A stretch of DNA of 64,000 nucleotides, from NCBI GenBank assembly GCA_018992685.1, contig JACVGT010000010.1:1-64000 (forward strand), in the 5' to 3' direction. This DNA is from Theionarchaea archaeon (GTDB lineage: Archaea > Methanobacteriota_B > Thermococci > Methanofastidiosales > SZ-28-30). A program made the position numbers and the translations under genes. This document shows positions 28,927 to 40,381 of the stretch, piece after piece (within the stretch, counting starts at the first letter, position 1; each line of letters begins with the position of its first letter). The notes beneath the pieces were generated by a model, which was given only the letters and a program-made list of their open reading frames with translations, was not told where the DNA came from and ran no database searches.

Positions 28927-30159
28927 TCACAGTGCCTTCAGGTATGTGGGAGCAGCCCCGGTAATGGTAACCCTGGAAAATGACCCCATGCGACCTGTGC
29001 ACACCACCGGTTTGTAATTGAAAAGTCTGGCTATCATGGTGGAAGGAACAGTCCCTTTTTGATTGACAAGGACTTCATAAGATTTTCCCACGTATTTCCT
29101 GTTAATGGAATGAGAAATGTCCATTCGCAACTTATATAAGAGGCGGGAACGTTCTTTCTTTATCCAGTCAGGGATTTGAGGCATCCTGGAGGCCTGTGTT
29201 CCCGGACGTGGCGAGAATCGAGTAACATTTATCTTATCTGGATTAATCTTCTTTACCAGAACGAGGGTGTCGTGAAACTGTTCTTCTGTTTCGGTGGGGA
29301 ATCCTGCAATGACATCTGTACATAGGTACAGATCCGGGAATTCTTTCCTGAAAGCCATACAGACAGTCACGAATTCATCTACTGTGTATTTTCTGTTCAT
29401 GAGTTGGAGGATGTGGTCGTTCCCCGATTGAACGGGAATGTGCAGGAATGTATAGATCTTTTCATGGTGGTAGACAGAAAGAAGATCCTCCAGGATGTCA
29501 AGAGCATGATTGGGATTCATCATTCCCACCCTGATTCTGAATTTTCCTTCCAGAGAGACCAGGTTCTCCAAGAGGAGCGGGAGTCTTTCCCCTGTGTTGA
29601 GGTCTGCGCCATAGCACCCCGTGTCCTGGGAAGTGATCTGCAGTTCCTTATATTCCTGAGAAATGAACTGGGCTGCCGTCTTGACGATTGATTCTGCGGG
29701 GTAGCTGTACAAGTGACCCCGGGCGAACCGGGCAGCGCAATAACTGCAGGATCCCACGCAGCCCTCAGAAATGGGAATGAGAGCATTAATCCCATCACCT
29801 GTACGAGGATAGCACAGCTTATTCTGTTTCTCTTCTCGTATAATGCGAACAGTGTGCCCTTCTTTGACCCTCTGGACAGCTTCAACAATGTCGTAAACAT
29901 TTGTTCCCACAACGTTTACATCCAGATTGGATATCTTGGGAAGACATCCTGCCACAATCAGGCATTTGTTCCTGGCTTTGATCTCCTCAATTCGCTTCCT
30001 GATCTTGTGTTCAGTGGGTCCTTTAACCCCACAGGAATTTATAATCACAACGTCAGCTTCGTCCAGACTCTCTGTGATCTGAGGGTAGAGTAGGGCTTTG
30101 ATAATTTCCGAATCTGCTTTGTTCATGGTGCAGCCATAGGTTTCCAGGTAGATCGACAT
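28927..30159 (-). CDS. tRNA methylthiotransferase (MiaB family, archaeal MtaB type)
   Basis: ETYGCTMN..DSE, NSC, GC in the MTTase N-domain; CVGSCSYC radical SAM motif; TRAM-like C-terminus. Confidence 0.88.
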   Translation of the reverse strand: MSIYLETYGCTMNKADSEIIKALLYPQITESLDEADVVIINSCGVKGPTEHKIRKRIEEIKARNKCLIVAGCLPKISNLDVNVVGTNVYDIVEAVQRVKEGHTVRIIREEKQNKLCYPRTGDGINALIPISEGCVGSCSYCAARFARGHLYSYPAESIVKTAAQFISQEYKELQITSQDTGCYGADLNTGERLPLLLENLVSLEGKFRIRVGMMNPNHALDILEDLLSVYHHEKIYTFLHIPVQSGNDHILQLMNRKYTVDEFVTVCMAFRKEFPDLYLCTDVIAGFPTETEEQFHDTLVLVKKINPDKINVTRFSPRPGTQASRMPQIPDWIKKERSRLLYKLRMDISHSINRKYVGKSYEVLVNQKGTVPSTMIARLFNYKPVVCTGRMGSFSRVTITGAAPTYLKAL

Positions 30160-30442
30160 TTGCTGATTACAGGTGTCGAAGATATATAATATTTGTTGAC
30201 AGGTGCTGCCCCTGGTTCATGAAGTGTGGAACAGGATGGTCGCCTCAAGCCTCCAGTATCTGAACACACGAGTATGAGGTATTCAGAACTGCGGCTGATC
30301 GAGTACATATTTGCGGGCAAGAGATTCTGCCAAAAGGCTTGAAGATTTATTCAAATATTGAACGCAGGACTGTACGCTACGCCCAACTCCTCTATCCAGT
30401 GTTCACTGAGAGCTTGCAGGACAGCTGCGAAAATCTATATTA

Positions 30443-31765
30443 GTGATGATGAGAATGTGCAGCATGCCAGAACTGCCAGAGGAGCCCAGACTGCCCAGCC
30501 GACGTGAGCTTGAACAGGCGATCTGGTCTGTGATGATAGCAATTTGTGTTGTACCTGTGGTGTACTCTTTTTCTCTTTTAGTCCGAGAGAGATTTTCTCT
30601 CATTCAAGCAGCAGAGCCCATGGCGGCCTTTCCCTATCACTGGTGGTTGGTGTTCATCTGCCTGGGGGGAGGTGCAGTTGTGGGACTTATCATCTGGAAG
30701 ATCGCCCCGGAATCAGAAGGTCCAGGACTGCAGGTGGTTATTGCAGCTTTCAATAAACGGGACGGTCATTTGAGAACCAGAACGGGCGCCTCAAAGTATG
30801 TAGCCACGCTCATAACAGTAGGATCTGGCACTCCCAACGGTATTGTCAGCCCTTCTGCTGTTCTGGGGAATTCAGTGGCCAGCATGATAGGAAGAATAGG
30901 AAATACGGAAAAAGACAGAGACCTGCAGAAGACTCTTTCCCTCTGTGGAGTTTCTGCCGCCCTTTCAACGCTACTGGGAGCACCAGTGGGTGCTGCACTA
31001 TTTGCGGTTGAAGTGGTGTATGGCAATTACATATTGTATAGGAGGTTCTTCTACTGTTTGATTTCCAGCGTTACAGCGCATGCGGTGACCCATTTTCTCG
31101 GTATGGAAACAGCGTACTTTGACATCACTCTTCCGGAGTTATCGCTCACGGGGTACGGACTTTTCCTTGTGATACTCACGGCGCTGTTCTCAGTAATGAT
31201 AAATATTGGATATATTTCTGTATATCAGAGAATCCATGACTTTTTTTCAGATCTATCCCACAGAATGATTCCATGGCTTGTTCCTGCAGTAGGTATGGGA
31301 CTGGCTGCCCTTATAATGGTTCCCCTCTATCAGAAGTTGATTGACTTCAGTCTTCTGGGCGGGAGTGCTTTCAGAATTACTGCAGCTGCAGCTGCCCCCT
31401 GGTATGTGATAGCTGTACTGATTGTGGTCATCGTGATAGCTACTTCTCTGGTGGCAGGCTCAGGGGGGAGTGGCGGGCTCTTCATGCCCGTTATGACAGT
31501 AGGAGTGCTGACAGGGATTCTGGTTGGAAATGCATATCCTCCTTTCATCTTTTTCTTTATCGTGGCTGGGATGAGCGCCGCCCTGTGCACCACACTCAAT
31601 GTTCCGCTGGCATCAGCTGTCCTGGGCATTGAATTGTTTGGTCCTCCTGCTATTCTTCCTTCAATCATAGGCGCCCTGACAGGATATATTTTTGCCAAAC
31701 GTTATGTCATATATCATGAAATCCAGTGGGAGGCATTGAAGGAATCAGATCAAGAGAAAGACTAG
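30443..31765 (+). CDS. CLC-family chloride channel/transporter, divergent
   Basis: APESEGPG, GAPVGAALFAVEV, GGSGGLFMP and NVPLAS motifs; no CBS domains. Confidence 0.8.
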   Translation: MMMRMCSMPELPEEPRLPSRRELEQAIWSVMIAICVVPVVYSFSLLVRERFSLIQAAEPMAAFPYHWWLVFICLGGGAVVGLIIWKIAPESEGPGLQVVIAAFNKRDGHLRTRTGASKYVATLITVGSGTPNGIVSPSAVLGNSVASMIGRIGNTEKDRDLQKTLSLCGVSAALSTLLGAPVGAALFAVEVVYGNYILYRRFFYCLISSVTAHAVTHFLGMETAYFDITLPELSLTGYGLFLVILTALFSVMINIGYISVYQRIHDFFSDLSHRMIPWLVPAVGMGLAALIMVPLYQKLIDFSLLGGSAFRITAAAAAPWYVIAVLIVVIVIATSLVAGSGGSGGLFMPVMTVGVLTGILVGNAYPPFIFFFIVAGMSAALCTTLNVPLASAVLGIELFGPPAILPSIIGALTGYIFAKRYVIYHEIQWEALKESDQEKD

Positions 31766-31900
31766 CCCACAATGATCTCCTCCTTGGAGATCATATGCGG
31801 GAAGCCAAGTCCTGGTTTGTGTACTGATTTCTCCCTGCAGATGATCTTCCAGTCTGTTGTTCGTAGGAGATTCAGTCACTTCATGTCCTCCCAATCCAAG

Positions 31901-33115
31901 TTATTCATCTCCATGGGAAGAAGCATCAGACCTCCTTAGCATGAAAAGAGCAGGTATTCCAAGCAGAATTACCACTGATGCTACATACCAGGATCCGATA
32001 ATGGAGGCTCGCTCTGCAATCACACCAAAAATGATTAACCCCAGAGCTGCAGCTCCTCTGCAGATCATGGAATCAAATGATAGAATCGTCGCCCTGGTCT
32101 CTGCTGGGATATGGTCGTTTATATACGCTTTCCGGGTGGGAAGCATGGTACCCCTCCCCACAAAGTACAGGAAGAAGAGAGGCAGCGACAACACAAAGTA
32201 GTTTGATAATCCCAGGACCAGAGGTGTGGCAGCACACAGAACAGTTGACAGGATCAGCACGTGATATCGCTTGAAGAGTGACGTCCAGTGCACCAGGAGA
32301 CTGCCCACCATCAGTCCCAGCGACAGGGCAACCCATGCGAGACCTACCTGTTGGGTGTTGGCGATCTCCTGGAAGTAGGGCTGCCAATACTGCATCACAG
32401 CCATGTATGCAAACATTGAGATGGCGCCAGGTATGATCAGGAATAACACCACCTTATTCTTTACCCCATAGGTAATGCTGAATCCAATGATTTTTTTCAT
32501 CTGTGATGCTCCATTCCTCAAAGAGAGGTTCTCCCTTCCTAGGTGCACCTCCTCCATCAGTAGATATCCTATCCAGAGAGTTGCCAGAGCCAACACCGCT
32601 CCCGCCAGAAAGGGATATGCTAAATTGCGTGAACCCAGGAATGCTCCAGAGAGTCCTGCAACAATCGACATGCCGCTTGCCAGGGTAGCCGCTCTCCCGA
32701 AGAGCCTGTCTTTCTTTTGTGTGTATCCGTTGGCATCCAGAGAGTCCACGAACCAGGCTTCCAGCGCACCCGAATGGAATGTCATGCCTATGGCAGCCAC
32801 TATTTCTGCAAGGGCAAAAAAGAGAAGAGACCCTGAGAAGAAGTAGATGAAAAAAGAAAAAGACATGAATAAGCAGGCAATCAGGAAGGAACGCTTGCGT
32901 CCAAACATGTCTGATACTGCACCTGTGGGAATCTCCAGAAGGAACACACTCCCCATGTAGAAGATATTTACCAGGTTGACCTGCAACAGATTCAGCCCCT
33001 TGGAAAGCATGAAGAGAATGTTTGTCGCCTGAATGGTGTTTACAGACAACATAAATAAGCATTCCAACAGGTAGAATGTGAGTACCGTCTTTTTCAGTCT
33101 ATGTATGAAGCCCAC
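31901..33115 (-). CDS. MFS transporter (putative RiPP exporter)
   Basis: LEIPTGAVSDMFGRK, SGALEAW and RATILS motifs; start overlaps the upstream radical SAM gene by 17 bp. Confidence 0.88.
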   Translation of the reverse strand: MGFIHRLKKTVLTFYLLECLFMLSVNTIQATNILFMLSKGLNLLQVNLVNIFYMGSVFLLEIPTGAVSDMFGRKRSFLIACLFMSFSFFIYFFSGSLLFFALAEIVAAIGMTFHSGALEAWFVDSLDANGYTQKKDRLFGRAATLASGMSIVAGLSGAFLGSRNLAYPFLAGAVLALATLWIGYLLMEEVHLGRENLSLRNGASQMKKIIGFSITYGVKNKVVLFLIIPGAISMFAYMAVMQYWQPYFQEIANTQQVGLAWVALSLGLMVGSLLVHWTSLFKRYHVLILSTVLCAATPLVLGLSNYFVLSLPLFFLYFVGRGTMLPTRKAYINDHIPAETRATILSFDSMICRGAAALGLIIFGVIAERASIIGSWYVASVVILLGIPALFMLRRSDASSHGDE

Positions 33116-34475
33116 CTTTGGTTCGTTCTTTCAAGAAGGGATAGTAGTATCGGGCGGACTCGAAGAGAACATCTTGTACATCAGTGCAGAATGGGCTGCC
33201 GATACTCCCTTCCTTTTCTGCAGCAAGCTTTGTACACCCTCCACCGCATACGAGCGCCAGGTTGCAGGACGTACATTTTTGCATGCATAGAATACTCCTG
33301 TTCCTCCATGATCCCAAGACGCTCTCATCTATTTCGAGTGTTGGAAAGAATCGTCCCACTTTGTATTCTTCAACACCAGCACTATCAACGCAGGTATAGA
33401 CATCCCCATTCAAATCAAAACAATAGCGAGTCATGTTCCCTCCACAGAATTTGAACTGGGGAGATGGAAGATGCCCAGTTTCCAAGACCTTTCTGAAGAT
33501 TTCAGCTCCGACCCAACCAACAAGGTGAATGACACTCATATCTTCACAATTTCGGTAGAAGTCAAAGATTTGATGTAGTGAGACATGTTCTGGCAGTCTG
33601 TGTTCATATTCCATGCAGCTGATGTCTCTCATGGGGGCAAGGTAGGGGACAATCAGGTTATTTCCTTTCCAGCCCTGTTCAACAAAGAAATGGGCCAGCT
33701 CAGGAAGAAGAGGTAAATTCTGAGCATCCACGTTGATGTGAATTGCTATCTTTATGTTGTTATCCACTGCCTTCTGAACTCCTCGTATGATGGGAGCAAA
33801 CGTCCCTCCAGACGTGGCAGAGATGCGCCTCTTGTTGTGTATCTCTTCAGGCCCATCCACTGTGACCTGGATATACTCCAGCTTATAGGAAGACAACATA
33901 TCGGTGTAGAATTCCAGATCCACGCCATTCGAGACAATTTTGGGTTTCCACCCGCGATTGTTGCTTTCTTCAAGGGTTTTCTGGATAACCTCAGATTGCC
34001 TCTTCCTCTTCAAGAGTGGTTCTCCCCCGAAAATCACAAAGTAGGGGAGTTCCTTTGATGGTGATCTTTCCTGAAGATAGTCCATGCTTTCAAAGGCAGC
34101 CTGAAGACATTCATCATCAATGACAGCACTTTTCAAGGCTGAATGATCCTGAAAGCAGTAGCTGCAACGGAGGTTGCATGCGTAGGTGGGGTACAGATAG
34201 AAAACGGGCAGACTCGTTCTGATCTTCTCCTCATACTCTCTGAACCGATAGTTCAGAAACCTGTCCTCGTGTTCCTCGATTTCGTACACGTATCCCTTTC
34301 TCTTCAAAGTGAGCAGTATGTTGGCATCACTTATCTCTTCACCACGTTCCAGACTCTTGAGGATTTCCACCATTTCATCATCAATGATATCCATGGCAGA
34401 AGACAGATTATTCATCAAAATGTACATTCCTTCTTCATCTACTGGCAGCAGCAAATTGTAACGACTAAGATGTAT
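33099..34475 (-). CDS. Radical SAM/SPASM peptide maturase 2 (probable ATA start at 34475; first canonical start is TTG at 34454)
   Basis: CNLRCSYC, FGGEP, and SPASM C-x17-C...CxxC-x5-C-x3-C...C; the N-terminus aligns in register with maturase 1. Confidence 0.9.
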   Translation of the reverse strand: MHLSRYNLLLPVDEEGMYILMNNLSSAMDIIDDEMVEILKSLERGEEISDANILLTLKRKGYVYEIEEHEDRFLNYRFREYEEKIRTSLPVFYLYPTYACNLRCSYCFQDHSALKSAVIDDECLQAAFESMDYLQERSPSKELPYFVIFGGEPLLKRKRQSEVIQKTLEESNNRGWKPKIVSNGVDLEFYTDMLSSYKLEYIQVTVDGPEEIHNKRRISATSGGTFAPIIRGVQKAVDNNIKIAIHINVDAQNLPLLPELAHFFVEQGWKGNNLIVPYLAPMRDISCMEYEHRLPEHVSLHQIFDFYRNCEDMSVIHLVGWVGAEIFRKVLETGHLPSPQFKFCGGNMTRYCFDLNGDVYTCVDSAGVEEYKVGRFFPTLEIDESVLGSWRNRSILCMQKCTSCNLALVCGGGCTKLAAEKEGSIGSPFCTDVQDVLFESARYYYPFLKERTKGGLHT

Positions 34476-34481
34476 ACTATG

Positions 34482-35852
34482 CTAACCTCCCTCTGCTCTT
34501 TTCTTTATGTAGGGGTAGTAGTAGTGAAACCCGAGATTCAATATCTGGTGTATTCCCACACAGGGGCTGGCCTGCAATGAACCATGTTTTGTCACCGCGA
34601 TGAACGTACAGCCTCCCCCGCACAGGAGATTGTAGGAGCAGGTGCTGCACTTTGGAAGTGTCAAGATGTTTCTCGTTTCCCATTGGTTGAGCAAGTCAAC
34701 ATAGAACTCCGATTCCGGAAAGAACTTTCCGATAACCTGACTCTTCTCCCCCGCGAATCCAGCGCATGCGTAGATGTCCCCGAATGTGTCGAAGCATAAC
34801 CGCTTCATTCCTGCCCCACAGAAGTTGAAAAGGGGAGAATACAGCCGGCCCTTTTTCACCAGGTTTTCTATGCTTTCCATCCATCTCCATCCCATCAGTG
34901 TGATGATTTTTGTCTCCGGACGCTCTGCATACATGTTCAGTACTGTCTTGAGCAACTGCGGAAGCGGAACAACATGTTCCTGTCCAATGCAACCAGAATC
35001 CCTCACAGCCGCAATGTACGGCGTGATCAACCCGGTGTCCTTCCAGCCTCTTTCTATGATAAAGGAGGCCATCTCAGGCAGTGTTGAGAGATTCTCTTTG
35101 TCCACATTGATGCGCAGTGCAATGTTCATTCCTATTTCCTTTAGAACCCTGTCTATGTTATCTGCAATTCGGTCAAAGCTTCCCGATCCATCCGCGAAAA
35201 TCCTCCTCCTGTTGTGTGTGTCTCTCGGTCCATCCAGGGTGACCTGAATATGTTTATCCACATATTTCCGGACTATGTCTATGTAATGACCAAGATCAAC
35301 CCCATTCGTAATTATTTTTGAGTGAAATCCCATATCCTGGCATTTCTTGAGGATGTATGTAACTGCTTCTTTCTGCTCTTTGCGATACATCAGTGGTTCT
35401 CCACCGAATAGGGTGAGCAAGGGCTGTTCTTTGGCTCCTCCTTCTGAATGGAATTTTTCCATGACCTCAAATGCCTTGTCAACAAGACGGGGTTTGATAA
35501 CATCTCCAATTCTCATGTCCTCTGTCTGAAAACAGTAGGTGCAGCGGAGATTGCATCCATATGTTGGATAGATAAAAAAAGACTCGGGCTCTGAAGCAAG
35601 GTTCTTGTTCCACTGCTCGAAAGCTTCTGTGATCAACTTTTCTTCATCTTCTTTTTTTAGATAAATGTATCTTCTCCTTGCCAGTTCATAGAGTATTTCT
35701 CTGTTATTCACCAACTCCCCCTGACTTAAGGTCTTGATGACGTCAATAACCTCTTTATCAACTATATCAACAGCTCCTGAAAGAGGATTCACCAAGATGA
35801 TGTCCTCTGTATCAGAAATTGGAAAAAAGAAAGTATAACGACTAACGTACAT
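34482..35852 (-). CDS. Radical SAM/SPASM peptide maturase 1
   Basis: CNLRCTYC, FGGEP, and SPASM FC...YAC...CSTCSYNLLCGGGC...PC; N-terminal extension of about 85 aa; ATG 35852 follows GGTGA. Confidence 0.92.
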   Translation of the reverse strand: MYVSRYTFFFPISDTEDIILVNPLSGAVDIVDKEVIDVIKTLSQGELVNNREILYELARRRYIYLKKEDEEKLITEAFEQWNKNLASEPESFFIYPTYGCNLRCTYCFQTEDMRIGDVIKPRLVDKAFEVMEKFHSEGGAKEQPLLTLFGGEPLMYRKEQKEAVTYILKKCQDMGFHSKIITNGVDLGHYIDIVRKYVDKHIQVTLDGPRDTHNRRRIFADGSGSFDRIADNIDRVLKEIGMNIALRINVDKENLSTLPEMASFIIERGWKDTGLITPYIAAVRDSGCIGQEHVVPLPQLLKTVLNMYAERPETKIITLMGWRWMESIENLVKKGRLYSPLFNFCGAGMKRLCFDTFGDIYACAGFAGEKSQVIGKFFPESEFYVDLLNQWETRNILTLPKCSTCSYNLLCGGGCTFIAVTKHGSLQASPCVGIHQILNLGFHYYYPYIKKRAEGG

Positions 35853-35881
35853 GGCGATCACCAGATCAAGTAGTGTGCGCG

Positions 35882-36109
35882 TTATGGCACAGCAACTTCA
35901 AGAGCACAGAATGTTGGCTGGACTTCAAGAGCACAGAATGTTGGCTGGACTTCAAGAGCACAGAATGTTGGCTGGACTTCAAGAGCACAGAATGTTGGCT
36001 GGACTTCAAGAGCACAGAATGTTGGCTGGACTTCAAGAGCACAATACAGTGTTCCGCTTTCGTCCTTCAGGTTAAGGTTCTCGTCACTAACCACAGATTT
36101 CATGAACAT
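35882..36109 (-). CDS. Putative RiPP precursor peptide: leader, five CALEVQPTF repeats, then CALEVAVP
   Basis: Strong SD GGAGGTGA at 36114-36121; 75-aa ORF ending 30 bp upstream of, and co-oriented with, two SPASM enzymes. Confidence 0.85.
   Translation of the reverse strand: MFMKSVVSDENLNLKDESGTLYCALEVQPTFCALEVQPTFCALEVQPTFCALEVQPTFCALEVQPTFCALEVAVP
35895..36043. repeat. Perfect 27-bp tandem repeat, 5 full copies plus 14 bp
   Basis: acttcaagagcacagaatgttggctgg at 35895, 35922, 35949, 35976 and 36003, partial at 36030; no spacers. Confidence 0.98.
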
Positions 36110-36251
36110 GTGTTCACCTCCTAAAGGTTTTACTTTCCATCCCGCACGAGTATTTAGATCTAATGGTTATTAGACTCTTTTTCTTTGCGAGATATTCTCA
36201 TTCGTAGGCTACTCAGATGATGTTTGAGAAAAAGCCTGAAAAAATCCTGAA

Positions 36252-37691
36252 TCAGGGTAGTCCTAAACGTTTCCTTATGATCACAGCAAACATACGAAGT
36301 CCTGTTTTCACATTCTGTGTTCTCCCTGCAGAATGTTTTGACTCCCCTCCACATCTCTTTCCGTACGTGACTGCTACCTCAACCACTGTCATGTCCGCCT
36401 TCAGCGCTTCAATCATCATTTCCACTGAGAAAGCTGCTCCTTCGTCTCGAAGGGTGTCCCGTATTCTGGCGTAGGTCCATTTCCACAGTCCCCGGTATGT
36501 GCACCCCACATCGGTGAATGAAGCACCTTTCTTCCACCACAATGTTTCCACCAGTTTTGCCAGAGCCCTATTCCCCCATCTCAGGAACCAATCCATGTTG
36601 GCCCCCGGTTCCACCAACTCCCTGAAGGTCCGGGTCCCAACAACCATGTCAGCATCTTTCAGGTGATCCACAATCATGAGGAGGTCCTTTGATCTGAAAG
36701 AGGCGTCCGCTTCTGTTATCACCAGGATGTCTCCCTTTGCGGCCTCCATGCCGCATTTCAGTGCATTCCCGTATCCCTGCTGTGGTTCCAACACTACCCG
36801 GGCTCCCTTCTTCTCTGCGATTGCTGCTGTCTCATCAATAGAATTGTTGTTTATCACAATAATTTCGTTCACAGGTTGGCTGGAGAAATCATCTATCACG
36901 TTTCCAATGCATTCTTCTTCATTGTATGCAGGTATAACAACAGAAGTATCAAAAGAATCGAAGTGGGACTGTCGCCACTGATACGTGGCCCGATTCAAGT
37001 CTCTTACTGTATTGATATTGGTGTAGAATCCTCTTAGAAAGAAAGCATAGACCTTTGACTCTTGCCTGGCAAGAATGTCAATAATATCAGTAATCTCAAT
37101 CTCATTCCGCAAGGAGGAAGGAGAAGCCTTTCTGATGTAATCGAATACCACTGGAGAAAATGCGTAGGTTCCCACACCCAGAAGATCGGTCCTCGGTGAC
37201 ACTGGCTTTTCTGTCAGAGACAGGATTCTATCACCTTCAAGGCACACGGCATAATTCTGGCTGATAGCTTTCATATCCATTGTCTTTTGAACGGCACAAA
37301 TAGCATTGAAATCACGGGAGAACAAAGAAAGCATCTCATTGTGGTTGGTGTTGATGTACATTTCATCCCCTAGAATAACGAAGAAAGGTGAATCAATATA
37401 CTCTTCACCAAGTCCAATGGCGTGGCCTATCCCTCTGGGATATTCCTGGGTAATGTAGTTGATTTCCAATCCCAGTGAGGACCCGTCTTCAAAATAAGAC
37501 CTTACCTGGTCTCCATGCTTTCCAGTCACAATGTGTATTGTTTTACAGTCTAGGTTGGTCTTGAGCAATTCCAGGTTATACTGGAGAAGGGGTTTCCCGT
37601 GAATGGTAAGCATTGCTTTTGGCTTCCTTTCTGTCATGGGGTACATTCGTAGTCCCCGCCCGGCAGCAGGAATGAGTGCTACGTTGCTCAT
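36252..37691 (-). CDS. Fusion of a sugar-phosphate nucleotidyltransferase (RmlA-like) and a GT2 (Dol-P-sugar synthase-like) glycosyltransferase
   Basis: IPAAGRGLRM.P...PK, ILGD and RNEIEITD, followed by VVIPAYNEE, GYGNAL, EAD and FTDVGC. Confidence 0.82.
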   Translation of the reverse strand: MSNVALIPAAGRGLRMYPMTERKPKAMLTIHGKPLLQYNLELLKTNLDCKTIHIVTGKHGDQVRSYFEDGSSLGLEINYITQEYPRGIGHAIGLGEEYIDSPFFVILGDEMYINTNHNEMLSLFSRDFNAICAVQKTMDMKAISQNYAVCLEGDRILSLTEKPVSPRTDLLGVGTYAFSPVVFDYIRKASPSSLRNEIEITDIIDILARQESKVYAFFLRGFYTNINTVRDLNRATYQWRQSHFDSFDTSVVIPAYNEEECIGNVIDDFSSQPVNEIIVINNNSIDETAAIAEKKGARVVLEPQQGYGNALKCGMEAAKGDILVITEADASFRSKDLLMIVDHLKDADMVVGTRTFRELVEPGANMDWFLRWGNRALAKLVETLWWKKGASFTDVGCTYRGLWKWTYARIRDTLRDEGAAFSVEMMIEALKADMTVVEVAVTYGKRCGGESKHSAGRTQNVKTGLRMFAVIIRKRLGLP

Positions 37692-37831
37692 GGGTCATGC
37701 CTCTCTTTCTGTACTTGTACCAGTATTTTTATATAAAGGTTAAGCTGTCTCCATTTTGGACTGGAGGTATCACCCATGATTGGAGGATGTGCCGTTTTCA
37801 ACCTTTATAAGCAGGCACGCCAAGAATACGT

Positions 37832-40381
37832 ATGAAGCTGAAGCACCCCACAGTGATCGCTTTTCTTATCCTGGCCCTGCTCACAGGGCTGGAAACACCC
37901 TTGAGACCTGTCTTCTCCCTGGGGTTATTCAGCTTCTTCCCTGGGCTACTCATCATATCTCTGGTTAAAAAAGAGGTTGATGTACCGGAACTTGCAGGAC
38001 TCCCACTCTTGGTGGGAATTTCCTTCTGGATTGTCTTTTATTATTTAACGTCAGGGCTTCACATCTTCACCTGGTACATTCTGGGAGGCATATCCTTTGT
38101 ATGTGCCGTTCTTGCAGAGAGGCAACCCCTGGTGGTGTCACGTGAGCACTACTGGGGGGTGTTCATCCTAGTTCTCTGCTGTCTCTTTGTTGGTTCGTAC
38201 CTGTACCCCTGGAACCAGTTTTTCCAATGGATGCCTCCCGGAGATGACATGAAGTTTCATATCCCTTTCATTGAGCATCTGGTTTCTCAACATGCGTTGC
38301 CTCAGGACTACGGTCTTTTGTACCCAGAGCTATCCACACTCACCTACTCTCTGGGATACCATATCACTGCAGGGCTGGCAGTCATCGTCGATTATTCGGT
38401 ACGTTCTCTCATGATTGCCACCTTTTTTATTGCTTCTCTTGCCTGTTTTTCCTTCTACTATTTGGGAAAGGCTTTATTTGACTGGAAGACCGGGATTTAT
38501 GCTGCTTTTTCCTTTGCCTTCTTATCCTTATTTTTCCAGCGGTTGTCTTCCACGGGGACCTATCCTAATCTACTTGCTGTCGCACTGCACGTTGTAGGAC
38601 TTTCATTGCTTTGTGAGTTGATGCTCCAGAAACCCAGTATCTCCTGCCGGTTCAGGAGAGGAGATAGTATATTCGGAATCTTCTGTGTAACGTTGGTATG
38701 TGCAGGTGCCGCAGAAACTCACCCTTATATTTTCATCATGGAGGGCATGGTCCTGGGAGGGGCATTGCTCTACTGGGTGTGGCAGAAGAATTTCGGAGCA
38801 GCTCGCCTCATTATCGCTGTTGGTGCTGGAATTCTTTTCCTGTGCATCCCCTTCTTCTTGAGGTTCAACCTAGAGCCACTCTCTGAGCTGGAATTCCTAA
38901 CGTTTGCTGCCTGGTACAGAATTGACTCTTTTGTGTCAGTACAGAACGTGATAAAATTCATCGGCATTATCAGTCCGCTCCTGCTTTTTTTGGGGGTGTC
39001 AGGGTGTATGGTGACTGAGAGAAAATGGATTCTGAGTGTATGGGGTGGGAGCATGATGGTTTTTCCCCTGTTATCGGTTTTCCAGGTACGGTACCCAGGC
39101 TGGTACACCATTTCTCCCAACAGGTTCTTTTTCTTCTTGTTCATGCCGCTCTCCATCATGTCAGGGAGACTTCTTTCCTACATGGAAGAACACATTGGTT
39201 CCAGGAAGGTTATAGGGTTCCTGGTCATTCTGATCCTTGTGTCAGCAGGGATGCACCACGCAAACCTCTTCCATTCGTTCTCGCAGGACCCACTCACGCA
39301 GGTTCAGATGAATGGTGACGACCAATTTGTCATAGATTGGATTTCCACGTATACACCCCAGAATACGGTCATTCTAAACACGGGCCCGGTGGCAGACTGT
39401 TCCTCATGGGTTCCTGTGTTGGCCGAAAGGAGGGTGGTCTTTCCCTTCTTTTCAGGATACAGGGGCGACAACTGCATAGAAAGACTGAAGGCTTACAACA
39501 GCCTGGCTGATCTAATGGTTCTCACGCATACACCTGATTCTGATCTGGCGCTCATGGCTTTGAAGAAGTACGGCATCCAATACATATACGTTCCTGCCTG
39601 GAGGGAAGTAAGATGGCTTGATCTCCACCCGGAGCTCTTACTGGATTCTCCATTGTATCAGTCAGTGGTCAAGAAAGGAGATGCATACGTGTTTGAAGTG
39701 AATTTCAATAGTCGTCACAAAACAGTGTACTATACAGTCACAGAAATAGAACAGATTCATTCGTCTGAGAACATGATCTCTCTCTTTTTCAACCCTATAA
39801 CTTCTTTCGGAGTCCATGGAGGACTGTACTTGCAGGTAGACTATGCAGATACAACGCACCAGCAGATTGACATCTACGTGAATGATACGTATGTGGAAAC
39901 TGTGTACACGTACCTGACAGATGAGGAAAGATCATTATTACTCCCTCTTTCTCACCTGGAAGAAGCAACCATTCTTTTCAAAGGAGACAGTGACTTCGTC
40001 CTGAAAAAAGTGTCCCTCCTGGTAGGAGTAGAGAACTGTCTGCAATTGTCTGAGAACGTAGGGACCCAGGGTGCATGGGTGAGAACAGACCTCGGTGTCA
40101 TTGCTCCATCATCTGAGAGGGGACTGCAACTTCTGGTGGTTAACGTGTCAGGAGGAGTAGTTGTGATGGAATACAAAGATGAAGGCATGGGGGATATTGA
40201 AATTTATGAAATTGATGCCTGGGGGAACCGTCGTCTTCTTCAGACCATCTCTAGAGAGAATACAGGAAAGAATGTGACAGTGCAGCTTCCTCTCCAGGAC
40301 GAATACACGGTTCTCGTTTTGACTGTAGAGGTCTGCGGTGATGACTTTCTCATACGTGAGATCGGGTATACTCCATCATGA
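37832..40381 (+). CDS. Large polytopic membrane protein, probable GT-C glycosyltransferase
   Basis: More than 12 TM segments, PPGDDMKFH loop motif, and a soluble C-terminal region (WI...TP...WVPVL...KYGIQYIYV). Confidence 0.6.
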   Translation: MKLKHPTVIAFLILALLTGLETPLRPVFSLGLFSFFPGLLIISLVKKEVDVPELAGLPLLVGISFWIVFYYLTSGLHIFTWYILGGISFVCAVLAERQPLVVSREHYWGVFILVLCCLFVGSYLYPWNQFFQWMPPGDDMKFHIPFIEHLVSQHALPQDYGLLYPELSTLTYSLGYHITAGLAVIVDYSVRSLMIATFFIASLACFSFYYLGKALFDWKTGIYAAFSFAFLSLFFQRLSSTGTYPNLLAVALHVVGLSLLCELMLQKPSISCRFRRGDSIFGIFCVTLVCAGAAETHPYIFIMEGMVLGGALLYWVWQKNFGAARLIIAVGAGILFLCIPFFLRFNLEPLSELEFLTFAAWYRIDSFVSVQNVIKFIGIISPLLLFLGVSGCMVTERKWILSVWGGSMMVFPLLSVFQVRYPGWYTISPNRFFFFLFMPLSIMSGRLLSYMEEHIGSRKVIGFLVILILVSAGMHHANLFHSFSQDPLTQVQMNGDDQFVIDWISTYTPQNTVILNTGPVADCSSWVPVLAERRVVFPFFSGYRGDNCIERLKAYNSLADLMVLTHTPDSDLALMALKKYGIQYIYVPAWREVRWLDLHPELLLDSPLYQSVVKKGDAYVFEVNFNSRHKTVYYTVTEIEQIHSSENMISLFFNPITSFGVHGGLYLQVDYADTTHQQIDIYVNDTYVETVYTYLTDEERSLLLPLSHLEEATILFKGDSDFVLKKVSLLVGVENCLQLSENVGTQGAWVRTDLGVIAPSSERGLQLLVVNVSGGVVVMEYKDEGMGDIEIYEIDAWGNRRLLQTISRENTGKNVTVQLPLQDEYTVLVLTVEVCGDDFLIREIGYTPS

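What the first reader, a model, noticed from the sequence alone, without database searches (positions are those of the whole stretch)
31901..36121. Candidate archaeal RiPP cluster: repeat-core precursor, two radical SAM/SPASM maturases and an MFS exporter
Seen: four tightly packed minus-strand genes. A 75-aa peptide with a strong SD (acidic leader MFMKSVVSDENLNLKDESGTLY, then 5x CALEVQPTF and CALEVAVP) is followed 30 bp later by two paralogous CxxxCxxC enzymes with complete SPASM cysteine sets, then an overlapping MFS gene. Established: SPASM enzymes next to short Cys-containing peptides install thioethers (sactipeptides, ranthipeptides, QhpD) or aromatic crosslinks (triceptides), and multi-core precursors are known in cyanobactins and graspetides. 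Inference: this is a dedicated peptide natural-product pathway in an archaeon. I do not recognise the core sequence from any characterised class.
Basis: partly seen in the sequence, partly recalled or inferred. Interest (0 to 1): 0.93.

Follow-up and report, generated by a model that had tools for sequence, protein, structure and literature searches.

The report
Archaeal repeat-peptide radical-SAM gene cluster
A tiny gene encoding six near-identical nine-residue units sits in front of two radical-SAM enzymes and an export pump in an uncultured archaeon; it looks like a real but so far undescribed pathway of a familiar type that makes a chemically cross-linked peptide.

Summary
On the minus strand lie a 75-aa peptide gene (35882-36109: 22-aa leader, 5x CALEVQPTF, then CALEVAVP), two paralogous radical SAM/SPASM genes (A 34482-35852; B 33099-34475) and an MFS gene (31901-33115).

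The same four-gene module occurs in a congeneric Theionarchaea MAG and on one metagenome contig. The flanks differ and the repeat number runs from 2 to 6. Among 15 full repeat units (6 DNA versions), 8 of 9 variable columns are synonymous third positions, so the peptide frame is under purifying selection.

Both enzymes keep CxxxCxxC and seven SPASM cysteines, and both have an N-terminal beta3-alpha3 domain. They resemble CteB most (Foldseek E 1.4e-21). They score best against thioether-maturase models (CefB, PapB, TIGR04463) but far below every family cut-off.

A second cluster in the congener pairs a related enzyme with a 3x FCATLPxE peptide. This points to F-C-A as the shared core motif.

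Best reading: a new family of repeat-core rSAM/SPASM RiPPs, most likely with a Cys thioether (C-x-x-E) in each repeat. The chemistry, the expression and the release of single units are all untested.

Verdict: a new member of a known kind, of moderate interest.

The parts
36150..36156 (-). TATA-box-like element TAAATAC, 41-47 nt upstream of the peptide ATG (putative archaeal promoter)
   Evidence: Invariant TAAATAC block in the alignment of the three upstream regions, while sequence further upstream is unrelated in L013; function inferred, not tested
36114..36121 (-). Shine-Dalgarno GGAGGTGA of the peptide gene
   Evidence: TTAGGAGGTGAA is identical in window, L014 and L013
36044..36109 (-). 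Leader region of the precursor (22 codons, MFMKSVVSDENLNLKDESGTLY)
   Evidence: In 5 peptide variants only positions 2, 10, 14, 15 and 16 vary. Leader codon differences between loci: 8-10 synonymous against 2-4 non-synonymous
35882..36043 (-). Core region: 5 x CALEVQPTF (27-bp units, 100% identical DNA) + CALEVAVP + stop
   Evidence: Purifying selection on this frame shown across loci
34482..35852 (-). rSAM-A: radical SAM/SPASM peptide maturase (456 aa from ATG 35852; an upstream GTG at 35861 is also open)
   Evidence: PF04055 E 1.5e-20. Best NCBIfam CefB 159 bits, PapB 131, TIGR04463 128, all below cut-offs. CteB E 2.1e-26. AF2 pLDDT 93.3 and Foldseek CteB E 1.4e-21. Active-site signature FFITAG
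33099..34475 (-). rSAM-B: paralogous radical SAM/SPASM maturase (458 aa if read from the ATA at 34475 that replaces the orthologues' ATG; 451 aa from TTG 34454)
   Evidence: 39% identical to A. PF04055 E 4.1e-14. CefB 133 bits, TIGR04463 127. CteB E 2.7e-16. AF2 pLDDT 92.4 with the same N-terminal domain. Signature FFVTVD. Start-codon issue
31901..33115 (-). MFS transporter (404 aa), start overlaps the end of rSAM-B by 17 nt; presumed exporter
   Evidence: PF07690 E 7.5e-21. Weak matches to efflux families (Tet(40), BcbE), none above cut-off. Orthologues 85% and 75% identical with the same 17-nt overlap in L014 and L013

Best explanation
This is a four-gene operon for a ribosomally made, post-translationally modified peptide (RiPP) in a Theionarchaea-type archaeon.

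The peptide gene has its own conserved TATA-like box and a strong Shine-Dalgarno sequence. Its product has a 22-residue leader, followed in this genome by six C-A-L-E-containing units: five CALEVQPTF and a terminal CALEVAVP.

Inferred steps:
- The leader is held by the N-terminal beta3-alpha3 (RRE-like) domain of one or both radical SAM/SPASM enzymes.
- The enzymes then act repeatedly along the array.
- The single Cys of each unit is most likely joined by a thioether to a side-chain carbon of a nearby residue. The Glu three positions on (C-x-x-E) is the best candidate, as in the ranthionine links made by PapB, QhpD and CrpC.
- A and B have different, separately conserved residues at two of the six pocket positions read here (positions 5 and 6). 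They therefore probably do different jobs: a second kind of link, or different positions.
- The MFS pump, translationally coupled to B, exports the product.

Shown here: the gene order, its conservation, selection on the peptide, the enzyme class, and intact cofactor motifs.

Not shown: leader binding beyond a weak model score, the type of bond, the division of labour between A and B, export, and whether the units are cut apart.
For: (1) Conserved module. Peptide, A, B and MFS lie in the same order and spacing in the window, in G001/L014 (A 87%, B 78%, MFS 85% identical) and in L013 (A 83%, B 80%, MFS 75%). The upstream neighbour differs: an NTP-transferase/GT2 fusion in the window and L014, a HEPN + nucleotidyltransferase pair in L013.

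(2) Selection. 15 full units occur as 6 DNA versions. 9 of 27 columns vary. 8 of those 9 are third positions and synonymous, and 1 gives Q->K. Only 23% of random single changes would be synonymous. The other five frames give 5-6 different peptides or stops.

(3) Five peptide variants share the leader and have 2, 3, 4, 5 or 6 full units.

(4) Enzyme class. Both enzymes have CxxxCxxC and seven invariant SPASM cysteines. The best HMMs are peptide maturases, thioether formers foremost. The nearest solved structure is the ranthisynthase CteB. Both models have an N-terminal three-strand, three-helix domain.

(5) Motif analogy.
- The archaeal CrpC (TIGR04463) puts ranthionine links on CrpA, a 17-residue motif repeated 10 times with C-X-X-Q/D. 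One modified motif is CAVD (PMC13692751, sections 8 and 12).

(6) A second locus in the congener (L018) pairs a 36%-identical enzyme with a 79-aa peptide carrying 3x FCATLP(S/G)E. The five variable columns in the FCATLP codons are all third-position and synonymous. The triple F-C-A pattern occurs nowhere else in 133 genomes.

(7) Distinct pockets. At the six CteB-defined positions, the 6 sequences at least 66% identical to A plus P0008 (46%) read FFITAG. The 3 B orthologues read FFVTV(D/N).

(8) Complex model of A with the peptide: median score 0.58 against a best control of 0.01, verdict 'weak support'.
- The mark was reached by 58 of 80 solved complexes and 2 of 110 mismatched pairs.
- At 0.60 or under it was reached by only 7 of those 80 and by both mismatches that passed.
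- The runs agree in at least 21% of contacts and the partner's pLDDT is at least 32.
- A like complex (CteB with its peptide, entry 5WGG by recall) is solved, so the pass may come from memory.
Against: - No chemistry or expression data.
- Every named maturase family is missed by a wide margin: CefB 159 of 600 bits, PapB 131 of 340, TIGR04463 128 of 525, SCIFF maturase 109 of 425. Bond type therefore cannot be read from family membership.
- The six proximity residues match CteB at only 2 of 6 positions, plus one conservative change, for both A and B. I had no reference table to score them against sacti- or ranthisynthases.
- There is only one Cys per unit but two enzymes, so thioether formation alone does not explain both.
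- Pfam finds no PqqD/RRE domain in the first 95 residues of A or B.
- No protease gene lies in the conserved module.
- P0124 (IIRALEVQP x4, Arg where Cys stands) may be a relative without Cys. Its 1248-bp contig could not be read.
- The module is rare: 2 of 133 genomes of the phylum sample, and not found downstream of the orthologous GT gene on the contig read from congener G002 (84% complete).
Confidence: 0.6

Rival explanations
1. Same RiPP logic, but the enzymes do not make thioethers. They would install carbon-carbon or other links instead: a cyclophane from the conserved Phe (F-C-A read as an aromatic-X-X motif), a cyclopropane on Val as TvgB does, a Glu-to-aromatic link as PqqE does, or epimerisation. 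Cys would serve another role or be modified by only one of the two enzymes.
For: Both FCA-type peptides keep Phe directly before Cys. Weaker HMM matches include the cyclophane formers YhhB (61 bits), GrrM/OscB (48 bits) and dynobactin DynA (104 bits). TigE (8VPO) and SuiB (5V1Q/5V1S/5V1T) are also structural hits. TvgB acts on a repeated TVGG motif (PMC9062424, passages). Full-length similarity is known to mislead for this superfamily: StsB resembles MftC most yet is a sactisynthase (PMC10288494, abstract and section 7). Two enzymes and one Cys per unit leave room for a second chemistry.
Against: The best-scoring models and the nearest structure are all Cys-thioether enzymes. Cys is invariant in every unit of the five clear family members and in L018. 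Each unit also carries C-x-x-E.
Confidence: 0.25
2. The peptide is a sacrificial scaffold for a small molecule, such as a cofactor or metal binder, built from one or two residues of each unit as in PQQ or mycofactocin. Each repeat would yield one copy and the MFS pump would move the small product.
For: MFS pumps usually carry small solutes (established knowledge, recalled). Weak matches to siderophore and drug exporters. Exact reiteration of a short unit with variable copy number fits a 'more copies, more product' logic. The unit contains E-x4-F, loosely like the Glu/Tyr pair of PqqA (recalled).
Against: No peptidase, oxidase or other tailoring gene lies in the conserved module. PqqE and MftC models are not among the 25 best NCBIfam hits for A or B, and PqqE 6C8V ranks only 31st by fold. 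The whole nine-residue unit is conserved, not just two residues.
Confidence: 0.08
3. The small ORF is not a gene. A 27-bp DNA tandem repeat happens to be open in one frame next to enzymes that act on something else.
For: The array is 100% identical at DNA level in the window. The genome holds other perfect in-frame tandem repeats. No expression data.
Against: In L013 the units differ at the DNA level yet encode the same nonapeptide. Across loci 8 of 9 variable columns are synonymous in this frame only. The SD, ATG and leader are conserved. No Rfam family matches 30000-38000.
Confidence: 0.02

Closest known systems
Freyrasin system PapA/PapB (ranthipeptide; NCBIfam NF047865)
   Same: One precursor with a short Cys-containing motif reiterated six times. 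An rSAM/SPASM enzyme makes one Cys-to-Asp/Glu thioether per motif and tolerates Cys-Xn-Asp with n = 0-6 (PMC9413430, passages). PapB is the second best HMM for A (131 bits).
   Different: The score is far below the family cut-off of 340. The unit here is 9 residues with C-x-x-E, not C-x3-D. There are two paralogous enzymes, the host is archaeal, and the pump is an MFS. The chemistry here is untested.
CrpA/CrpC of Methanococcus voltae (TIGR04463)
   Same: Archaeal. An rSAM/SPASM enzyme with an N-terminal RRE-like domain installs ranthionine links on a substrate whose C-terminal part is a reiterated Cys motif with C-X-X-Q/D. CAVD is one modified motif (PMC13692751, abstract, sections 8 and 12). 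TIGR04463 is the second or third best HMM for B and A (127 and 128 bits).
   Different: The cut-off of 525 is not met. CrpA is a protein of at least 100 residues with a folded N-terminal domain and 17-residue repeats rich in Cys. Here the precursor is a 75-aa peptide with one Cys per 9-residue unit, there are two enzymes, and there is a transporter.
CteA/CteB (SCIFF/thermocellin maturase; PDB 5WHY, 5WGG)
   Same: Nearest solved structure by sequence (E 2.1e-26 for A, 2.7e-16 for B) and by fold (E 1.4e-21, TM 0.64/0.69, aligned over the whole length). Same three-cluster architecture.
   Different: 21-23% identity. The substrate-pocket residues differ at 3-4 of 6 positions: CteB F F T S H Q against A F F I T A G and B F F V T V D. 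SCIFF peptides are not repeat arrays (recalled).
TvgA/TvgB poly-cyclopropylglycine system
   Same: A precursor made of a short motif repeated many times (TVGG), modified once per repeat by an rSAM/SPASM enzyme. The authors suggest release of multiple small products (PMC9062424, passages). The related TigE (8VPO) is a fold hit.
   Different: That system makes a C-C bond within Val, has no Cys, and is bacterial. It has an added oxygenase and peptidase/transporter genes that are absent here.
CefA/CefB 'Cys-every-fifth' system (NCBIfam NF038107)
   Same: Best-scoring HMM for both A (159 bits) and B (133 bits), aligned end to end. By its name it targets peptides with regularly spaced Cys.
   Different: The cut-off is 600 bits. 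Cys here is every ninth residue. I found no paper on the family (search 'Cys-every-fifth', 0 papers), so nothing is known of its chemistry.
Multi-core cassette RiPPs (cyanobactins and similar; recalled, not tested here)
   Same: Identical short units in one precursor with copy number varying between strains.
   Different: Those systems have dedicated proteases and recognition sequences flanking each core. No protease gene is part of the conserved module here, and the enzymes are of an unrelated class.

Membership tests
Radical SAM superfamily (PF04055) | [quoted passage not shown] | tested here: met
   A: 74.5 bits; B: 53.5 bits; cut-off 29.5. CNLRCTYC and CNLRCSYC. C100, C104 and C107 invariant in 48 sequences.
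SPASM subgroup of radical SAM enzymes | Seven C-terminal cysteines for two auxiliary [4Fe-4S] clusters | tested here: met
   C345, C363, C402, C405, C411, C415 and C431 are invariant, B orthologues included. The pattern parallels the ligand list given for CrpC (PMC13692751). The Pfam SPASM model itself gave no hit at E <= 0.01.
RiPP biosynthetic cluster | Short precursor gene with leader and core next to the modifying enzyme, co-conserved with it | tested here: met
   3 of 3 orthologous loci keep the peptide directly upstream. Leader and core are conserved under purifying selection.
RiPP biosynthetic cluster | RiPP recognition element (RRE) that binds the leader | tested here: inconclusive
   The models of A and B have an N-terminal beta-beta-beta-alpha-alpha-alpha domain, residues about 7-87. 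It aligns with the N-terminus of CteB. The complex model gave only 'weak support', 0.58 against 0.01. Pfam has no PqqD-type hit. That the RRE fold is beta3-alpha3 is recalled.
RiPP biosynthetic cluster | A modified peptide product is actually made | not testable with these tools
   Needs expression and mass spectrometry.
Ranthipeptides | Thioether from Cys sulfur to a non-alpha carbon of an acceptor residue | not testable with these tools
   Only indirect support: one Cys and C-x-x-E per unit, and the closest enzymes are ranthisynthases.
Ranthipeptides / sactipeptides | Catalytic-site proximity profile (six CteB-defined residues) like known ranthi- or sactisynthases | tested here: inconclusive
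   A reads FFITAG and B reads FFVTVD, against CteB FFTSHQ and StsB YTISKL (text of PMC10288494; mapping). The reference profiles are in figures and supplements I could not see.
PapB family (NF047865) | Score at or above the curated cut-off (340 bits) | tested here: not met
   A 130.9 bits, B 115.5 bits.
CefB family (NF038107) | Score at or above the curated cut-off (600 bits) | tested here: not met
   A 159.4 bits, B 132.7 bits.
TIGR04463 (CrpC family) | Score at or above the curated cut-off (525 bits) | tested here: not met
   A 127.9 bits, B 127.3 bits.
SCIFF maturase (TIGR03974, CteB-type) | Score at or above the curated cut-off (425 bits) | tested here: not met
   A 108.8 bits, B 83.1 bits.
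His-Xaa-Ser paired rSAM system (HxsB, TIGR03978) | Score at or above the curated cut-off (370 bits) | tested here: not met
   A 68 bits, B 57.9 bits.
Multi-core cassette RiPPs (cyanobactin-like) | Dedicated protease(s) and flanking recognition sites that release each unit | tested here: not met
   No protease lies in the conserved module. An M20 peptidase lies convergent to the MFS gene only in L013. An aromatic residue precedes every Cys (Y|C, F|C), which is a possible cut site by inference only.

The most novel reading that the evidence does not exclude
Each CALEVQPTF unit is a separate core. After modification by two different radical SAM/SPASM enzymes (A and B have distinct, conserved pocket residues), the array is cut at the aromatic|Cys junctions (Y|C after the leader, F|C between units). 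This would give many copies of one cross-linked peptide of about 1 kDa, small enough for the MFS pump. That would join cyanobactin-style multi-cassette economy to radical-SAM chemistry in an archaeon. F-C-A would be a new cross-link or recognition motif, shared with the FCATLPxE family.
Probability: 0.2. Interest if true: 0.75.

Novelty: new member of a known kind. Interest (0 to 1): 0.5.

Why it matters
Surveys predict many rSAM-type RiPP clusters in archaea, but few have known products (PMC12144867, passages). I found no paper that links Theionarchaea to biosynthetic clusters.

This locus is a compact test case: one peptide, two enzymes, one pump. It has natural variants with 2-6 units. It also has a sister family (FCATLPxE) that narrows the recognition motif to F-C-A.

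It could show three things:
- what two paralogous SPASM enzymes each do on a one-Cys repeat;
- whether C-x-x-E is a general ranthionine motif;
- whether repeat arrays are cut into units.

This genome carries at least five further tandem rSAM/SPASM clusters. Three of them have Cys-rich peptide ORFs upstream and a fourth has a weaker candidate. The lineage therefore looks unusually invested in such peptides.

Tried and rejected
- **Wider relatives of the peptide.**
  - The word-index search found 2 proteins among 923 candidates.
  - The full profile search found 48 proteins at E <= 0.001. I read 14 of them besides P0122. 12 are longer ORFs with other repeat units and no shared leader, which I take as repeat-driven matches. 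P0124 (IIRALEVQP x4) is left open.
  - The protein atlas gave no hit of 0.8 or more for the peptide. For enzyme A it gave only generic radical SAM clusters.
  - Of 200 and 149 pattern-matched stretches, 1 and 2 encoded a relative.
  - One of those is a 21%-identical Planctomycetota hit (L015), which I did not follow.
- **Similarity of the two leaders.** MFMKSVVSD and MSMRALNPD look alike by eye, but BLASTP of the two peptides gives E 0.17 and aligns only the FCA region. I make no claim of leader homology.
- **RRE by sequence.** Pfam on the first 95 residues of A and B gave only chance-level hits.
- **Bond type from the six proximity residues.** These could be read but not scored. [quoted passage not shown]
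- **A/B origin.** The tree had 34 rows: 18 from loci and 16 hand-picked from the 120 listed hits, with the other 104 left out.
  - A orthologues (5 rows, support 100) and B orthologues (3 rows, support 100) fall in one 22-row group (support 92), apart from 12 other paralogues of this genome.
  - The order of duplication is unresolved.
- **Other arrays.** Genome-wide TRF gave 334 rows. By coordinates, none of the other listed in-frame arrays lies inside the rSAM clusters mapped.
- **Other negative or unavailable checks.**
  - Rfam found no family in 30000-38000.
  - The sigma-70 promoter and terminator scan was not run, because the host is archaeal.

Full report
**What is there**

Four minus-strand genes fill 31901-36121.

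- *Peptide gene.* It runs 35882-36109 and encodes 75 residues: MFMKSVVSDENLNLKDESGTLY, five copies of CALEVQPTF, and CALEVAVP. GGAGGTGA lies 4 nt upstream of its ATG. The repeat is a 27-bp unit, 5.5 copies, 100% identical (35895-36043).
- *rSAM-A.* It follows 29 nt later, read from ATG 35852. That gives the 456-aa length of the database copy P0001. The ORF list starts it at GTG 35861.
- *rSAM-B.* It follows A within 6-27 nt.
- *MFS gene.* It starts 17 nt before B ends.
- A and B are 39% identical end to end (E 9e-129).
- Composition is flat across the region at 45-48% GC.

**Is the small ORF a gene?**

Yes, on comparative evidence.

- The same module is present in a congeneric genome (G001, locus L009). 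That locus is identical to the named record L014, a Theionarchaea MAG. A is 87% identical there.
- It is also present on one metagenome contig, L013, where A is 83% identical.
- The peptides are: leader + 4 units in G001; leader + CALEVKPTF + 5x CALEVQPTF + CALEVSVP in L013.
- Two database peptides carry 3 and 2 units plus CALEVMVP (P0121 and P0122).
- In L013 the units differ at the DNA level (89% matches) yet encode the same nonapeptide.
- Across the 15 full units of the three loci there are 6 DNA versions. Of the 27 columns, 9 vary. Eight of those are synonymous third positions and one gives Q->K. Only 23% of random single changes would be synonymous. Every other frame gives 5-6 different peptides or stops.
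- Leader codons show 8-10 synonymous against 2-4 non-synonymous differences per pair.
- Upstream, TTAGGAGGTGAA and a TAAATAC box about 40 nt before the ATG are conserved. Sequence further upstream is unrelated in L013.
- No Rfam family matches the region.

**Limits of the module**

- Peptide, A, B and MFS keep their order and the 17-nt B/MFS overlap in all three loci. B is 78-80% identical and the MFS 75-85%.
- The neighbours differ.
  - The window and G001 have an NTP-transferase/GT2 fusion upstream.
  - L013 has a HEPN + nucleotidyltransferase pair upstream and a convergent M20 peptidase downstream.
  - The window has a CLC channel gene between the MFS gene and a MiaB-like gene. G001 lacks it.
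- In the congener G002 (84% complete), the orthologous GT fusion is followed by a different MFS gene, with no peptide or rSAM on that contig.
- Close homologues of A were found in 2 of 61 relatives and in 2 of 133 genomes of the phylum sample, own genome included.
- The module is therefore a patchy accessory unit.

**The enzymes**

- Both match Radical_SAM and Fer4_12.
- In NCBIfam the best models are all peptide maturases, but none comes near its cut-off. Scores for A / B, then cut-off:
  - CefB 159 / 133 bits, cut-off 600
  - PapB 131 / 116, cut-off 340
  - TIGR04463 128 / 127, cut-off 525
  - Clo7bot 109 / 118, cut-off 600
  - SCIFF maturase 109 / 83, cut-off 425
- CxxxCxxC and seven C-terminal cysteines are invariant in 48 aligned sequences, B orthologues included.
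- The nearest solved structure is CteB (5WGG/5WHY): E 2.1e-26 for A and 2.7e-16 for B.
- The AF2 models are confident (pLDDT 93.3 and 92.4). Both begin with three strands and three helices, residues about 7-87. Foldseek aligns model A over its whole length to CteB (E 1.4e-21, TM 0.64/0.69), ahead of anSME, ChlB, SuiB and TigE.
- That beta3-alpha3 arrangement is the RRE fold as I recall it. Pfam does not detect it by sequence.
- A complex model of A with the peptide scored 0.58 (three runs: 0.65, 0.55, 0.58) against a best control of 0.01. The tool calls this weak support.
  - The mark was reached by 58 of 80 solved complexes and 2 of 110 mismatches.
  - At 0.60 or under it was reached by only 7 of the 80 and by both passing mismatches.
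  - The runs share at least 21% of contacts and the partner's pLDDT is at least 32.
  - A like complex is solved, so memory may explain the pass.

**A and B are not redundant copies**

Precord et al. define six pocket residues in CteB: F112, F152, T186, S210, H363, Q364 (PMC10288494, section 7). I mapped them through the CteB alignment. The chain numbering there is offset by three, which is my inference.

- A reads F F I T A G. So do all six sequences at least 66% identical to it, and P0008 at 46%.
- The three B orthologues read F F V T V (D/N).
- The loop after the auxiliary-cluster Cys thus differs consistently between A and B.
- I could not score these profiles against known sacti- or ranthisynthases, because the reference profiles are in figures and supplements.

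**A sister family**

In G001 a separate contig (L018) carries:

- a 79-aa ORF with its own AAGGAGGTGA and three FCATLP(S/G)E units about 17 residues apart;
- an rSAM/SPASM enzyme 36% identical to both A and B;
- a 378-aa paralogue that has lost CxxxCxxC but keeps the C-terminal Cys-rich end;
- a B12-type radical SAM gene whose best model is the RiPP enzyme ApyD.

The FCATLP codons differ between units at five columns, all synonymous third positions.

A DNA pattern for three F-C-A triplets within short spans hits only these peptide genes in 133 genomes. The reversed-pattern control found none. F-C-A is therefore the element shared by the two cores. Both cores also have Glu and Pro a few residues after Cys.

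**How it most likely works**

By analogy, not by test, the leader docks on the N-terminal domain and the enzymes work along the array.

- PapB makes one Cys-Asp/Glu thioether in each of six C-x3-D/E motifs of PapA and accepts spacings of 0-6 (PMC9413430, passages).
- The archaeal CrpC (TIGR04463) makes ranthionine links in a 17-residue motif repeated ten times that contains C-X-X-Q/D. CAVD is among the modified motifs (PMC13692751, sections 8 and 12).
- C-A-L-E fits this pattern, so a Cys-to-Glu side-chain thioether per unit is my first choice.
- With one Cys per unit, the second enzyme needs another task. It could make a second kind of bond, for example on Phe, Val or Thr. It could handle other positions. 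It could have a partner role, as the motif-less paralogue in L018 hints.
- Export by the coupled MFS pump is inferred from gene linkage only.

**One product or many?**

Undecided.

- For separate units:
  - the nonapeptide is reiterated exactly;
  - copy number ranges from 2 to 6 among close relatives;
  - an aromatic residue precedes every Cys (Y|C after the leader, F|C between units, and also in L018);
  - the pump is of a class that usually carries small solutes (recalled).
- Against:
  - no protease lies in the conserved module;
  - PapA- and CrpA-type arrays are single products;
  - copy numbers of perfect 27-bp repeats in short-read assemblies are unreliable. L013's array is the exception, because its units differ.

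**Comparison and novelty**

- Repeat-motif precursors served by rSAM/SPASM enzymes are an established kind: PapA, CrpA, TvgA, and an Asp-Cys repeat family noted in PMC9062424.
- Archaeal rSAM RiPP clusters are widely predicted (PMC12144867).
- What is new:
  - a precursor family with no model in Pfam or NCBIfam and no relatives beyond a handful of Theionarchaea-type sequences;
  - enzymes below all curated cut-offs;
  - a conserved pair of diverged maturases;
  - the F-C-A motif.
- Literature searches found nothing on this.
  - 'Theionarchaea' + 'radical SAM': 2 papers, listing only, neither on RiPPs by title or abstract.
  - 'Theionarchaea' + 'biosynthetic gene cluster': 0 papers.
  - 'Cys-every-fifth': 0 papers.
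- I rate it a new member of a known kind, interest about 0.5.

**Limits**

- No expression or chemistry data.
- Supplements could not be read.
- The neighbourhoods of the 45-70% homologues and of P0124 remain unseen.

Noticed in passing
G001:C132 = L018:956-4831: A second repeat-peptide cluster. It has a 79-aa ORF with 3x FCATLP(S/G)E, an rSAM/SPASM enzyme (36% identical to A and to B), a 378-aa paralogue lacking CxxxCxxC, and a B12-type radical SAM gene whose best model is ApyD. The contig ends inside the last gene.
   Followed up: partly
own genome outside the window: C10:13953-18347; C18:7975-11088; C1:308646-310645; C1:67955-70620; C13:54376-57224; C33:548-3463: At least five further clusters of two or three tandem rSAM/SPASM genes, and one with a single such gene. 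Some have Cys-rich small ORFs upstream: ...GKCGGCACGCFVVNCMGLSAC at C10:13953-14156, ...GVCGCGGCCCAFYCRTLIC at C18:10930-11088, and twin ORFs with EIDQCMCCA at C1:310154-310240 and 310538-310645. These small ORFs were only read, not tested.
   Followed up: partly
window 34473-34475 (-): Where the rSAM-B orthologues have their ATG (MHLSRYN...), the window has ATA, 6 nt after the rSAM-A stop and 8 nt after a GGAGGT. The next in-frame start is TTG, 7 codons downstream. Either initiation is non-canonical, the N-terminus is shortened, or there is a base error.
   Followed up: partly
L014:3954-3980 (G001): The last, partial unit of the array is decayed. The first four codons differ from CALE and begin with a stop, while the following GTT GCT G.G CCA TAA is still recognisable. 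That peptide therefore ends after the fourth full unit.
   Followed up: yes
P0124 (database protein, 78 aa, 1248-bp contig): A peptide with 4x IIRALEVQP: the same ALEVQP and 9-residue period, but Arg in place of Cys and a different N-terminus. It is a singleton and its DNA and neighbours are not retrievable here. If it sits next to A/B-type enzymes it would argue against Cys-based chemistry.
   Followed up: partly
window 30443-31765 (+): A CLC-type chloride channel gene lies between the MFS gene and the MiaB-like gene (28927-30159). It is absent at this place in G001, where the MFS and MiaB-like genes are adjacent.
   Followed up: partly
window 36252-37691 (-) and 37832-40381 (+): A fusion of a sugar-1-phosphate nucleotidyltransferase and a GT2 glycosyltransferase (AglJ-like C-terminal half) sits next to an 849-aa multi-pass membrane protein with no Pfam match. 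This may be a surface-glycosylation locus unrelated to the peptide cluster.
   Followed up: no
one search hit list (P0037 and about 55 further hits): Many bacterial homologues of rSAM-A at 30-34% identity are fused to a C-terminal DUF5714 domain (PF18978) and are about 690-780 aa long. One hit, P0035, is fused to methyltransferase domains.
   Followed up: no
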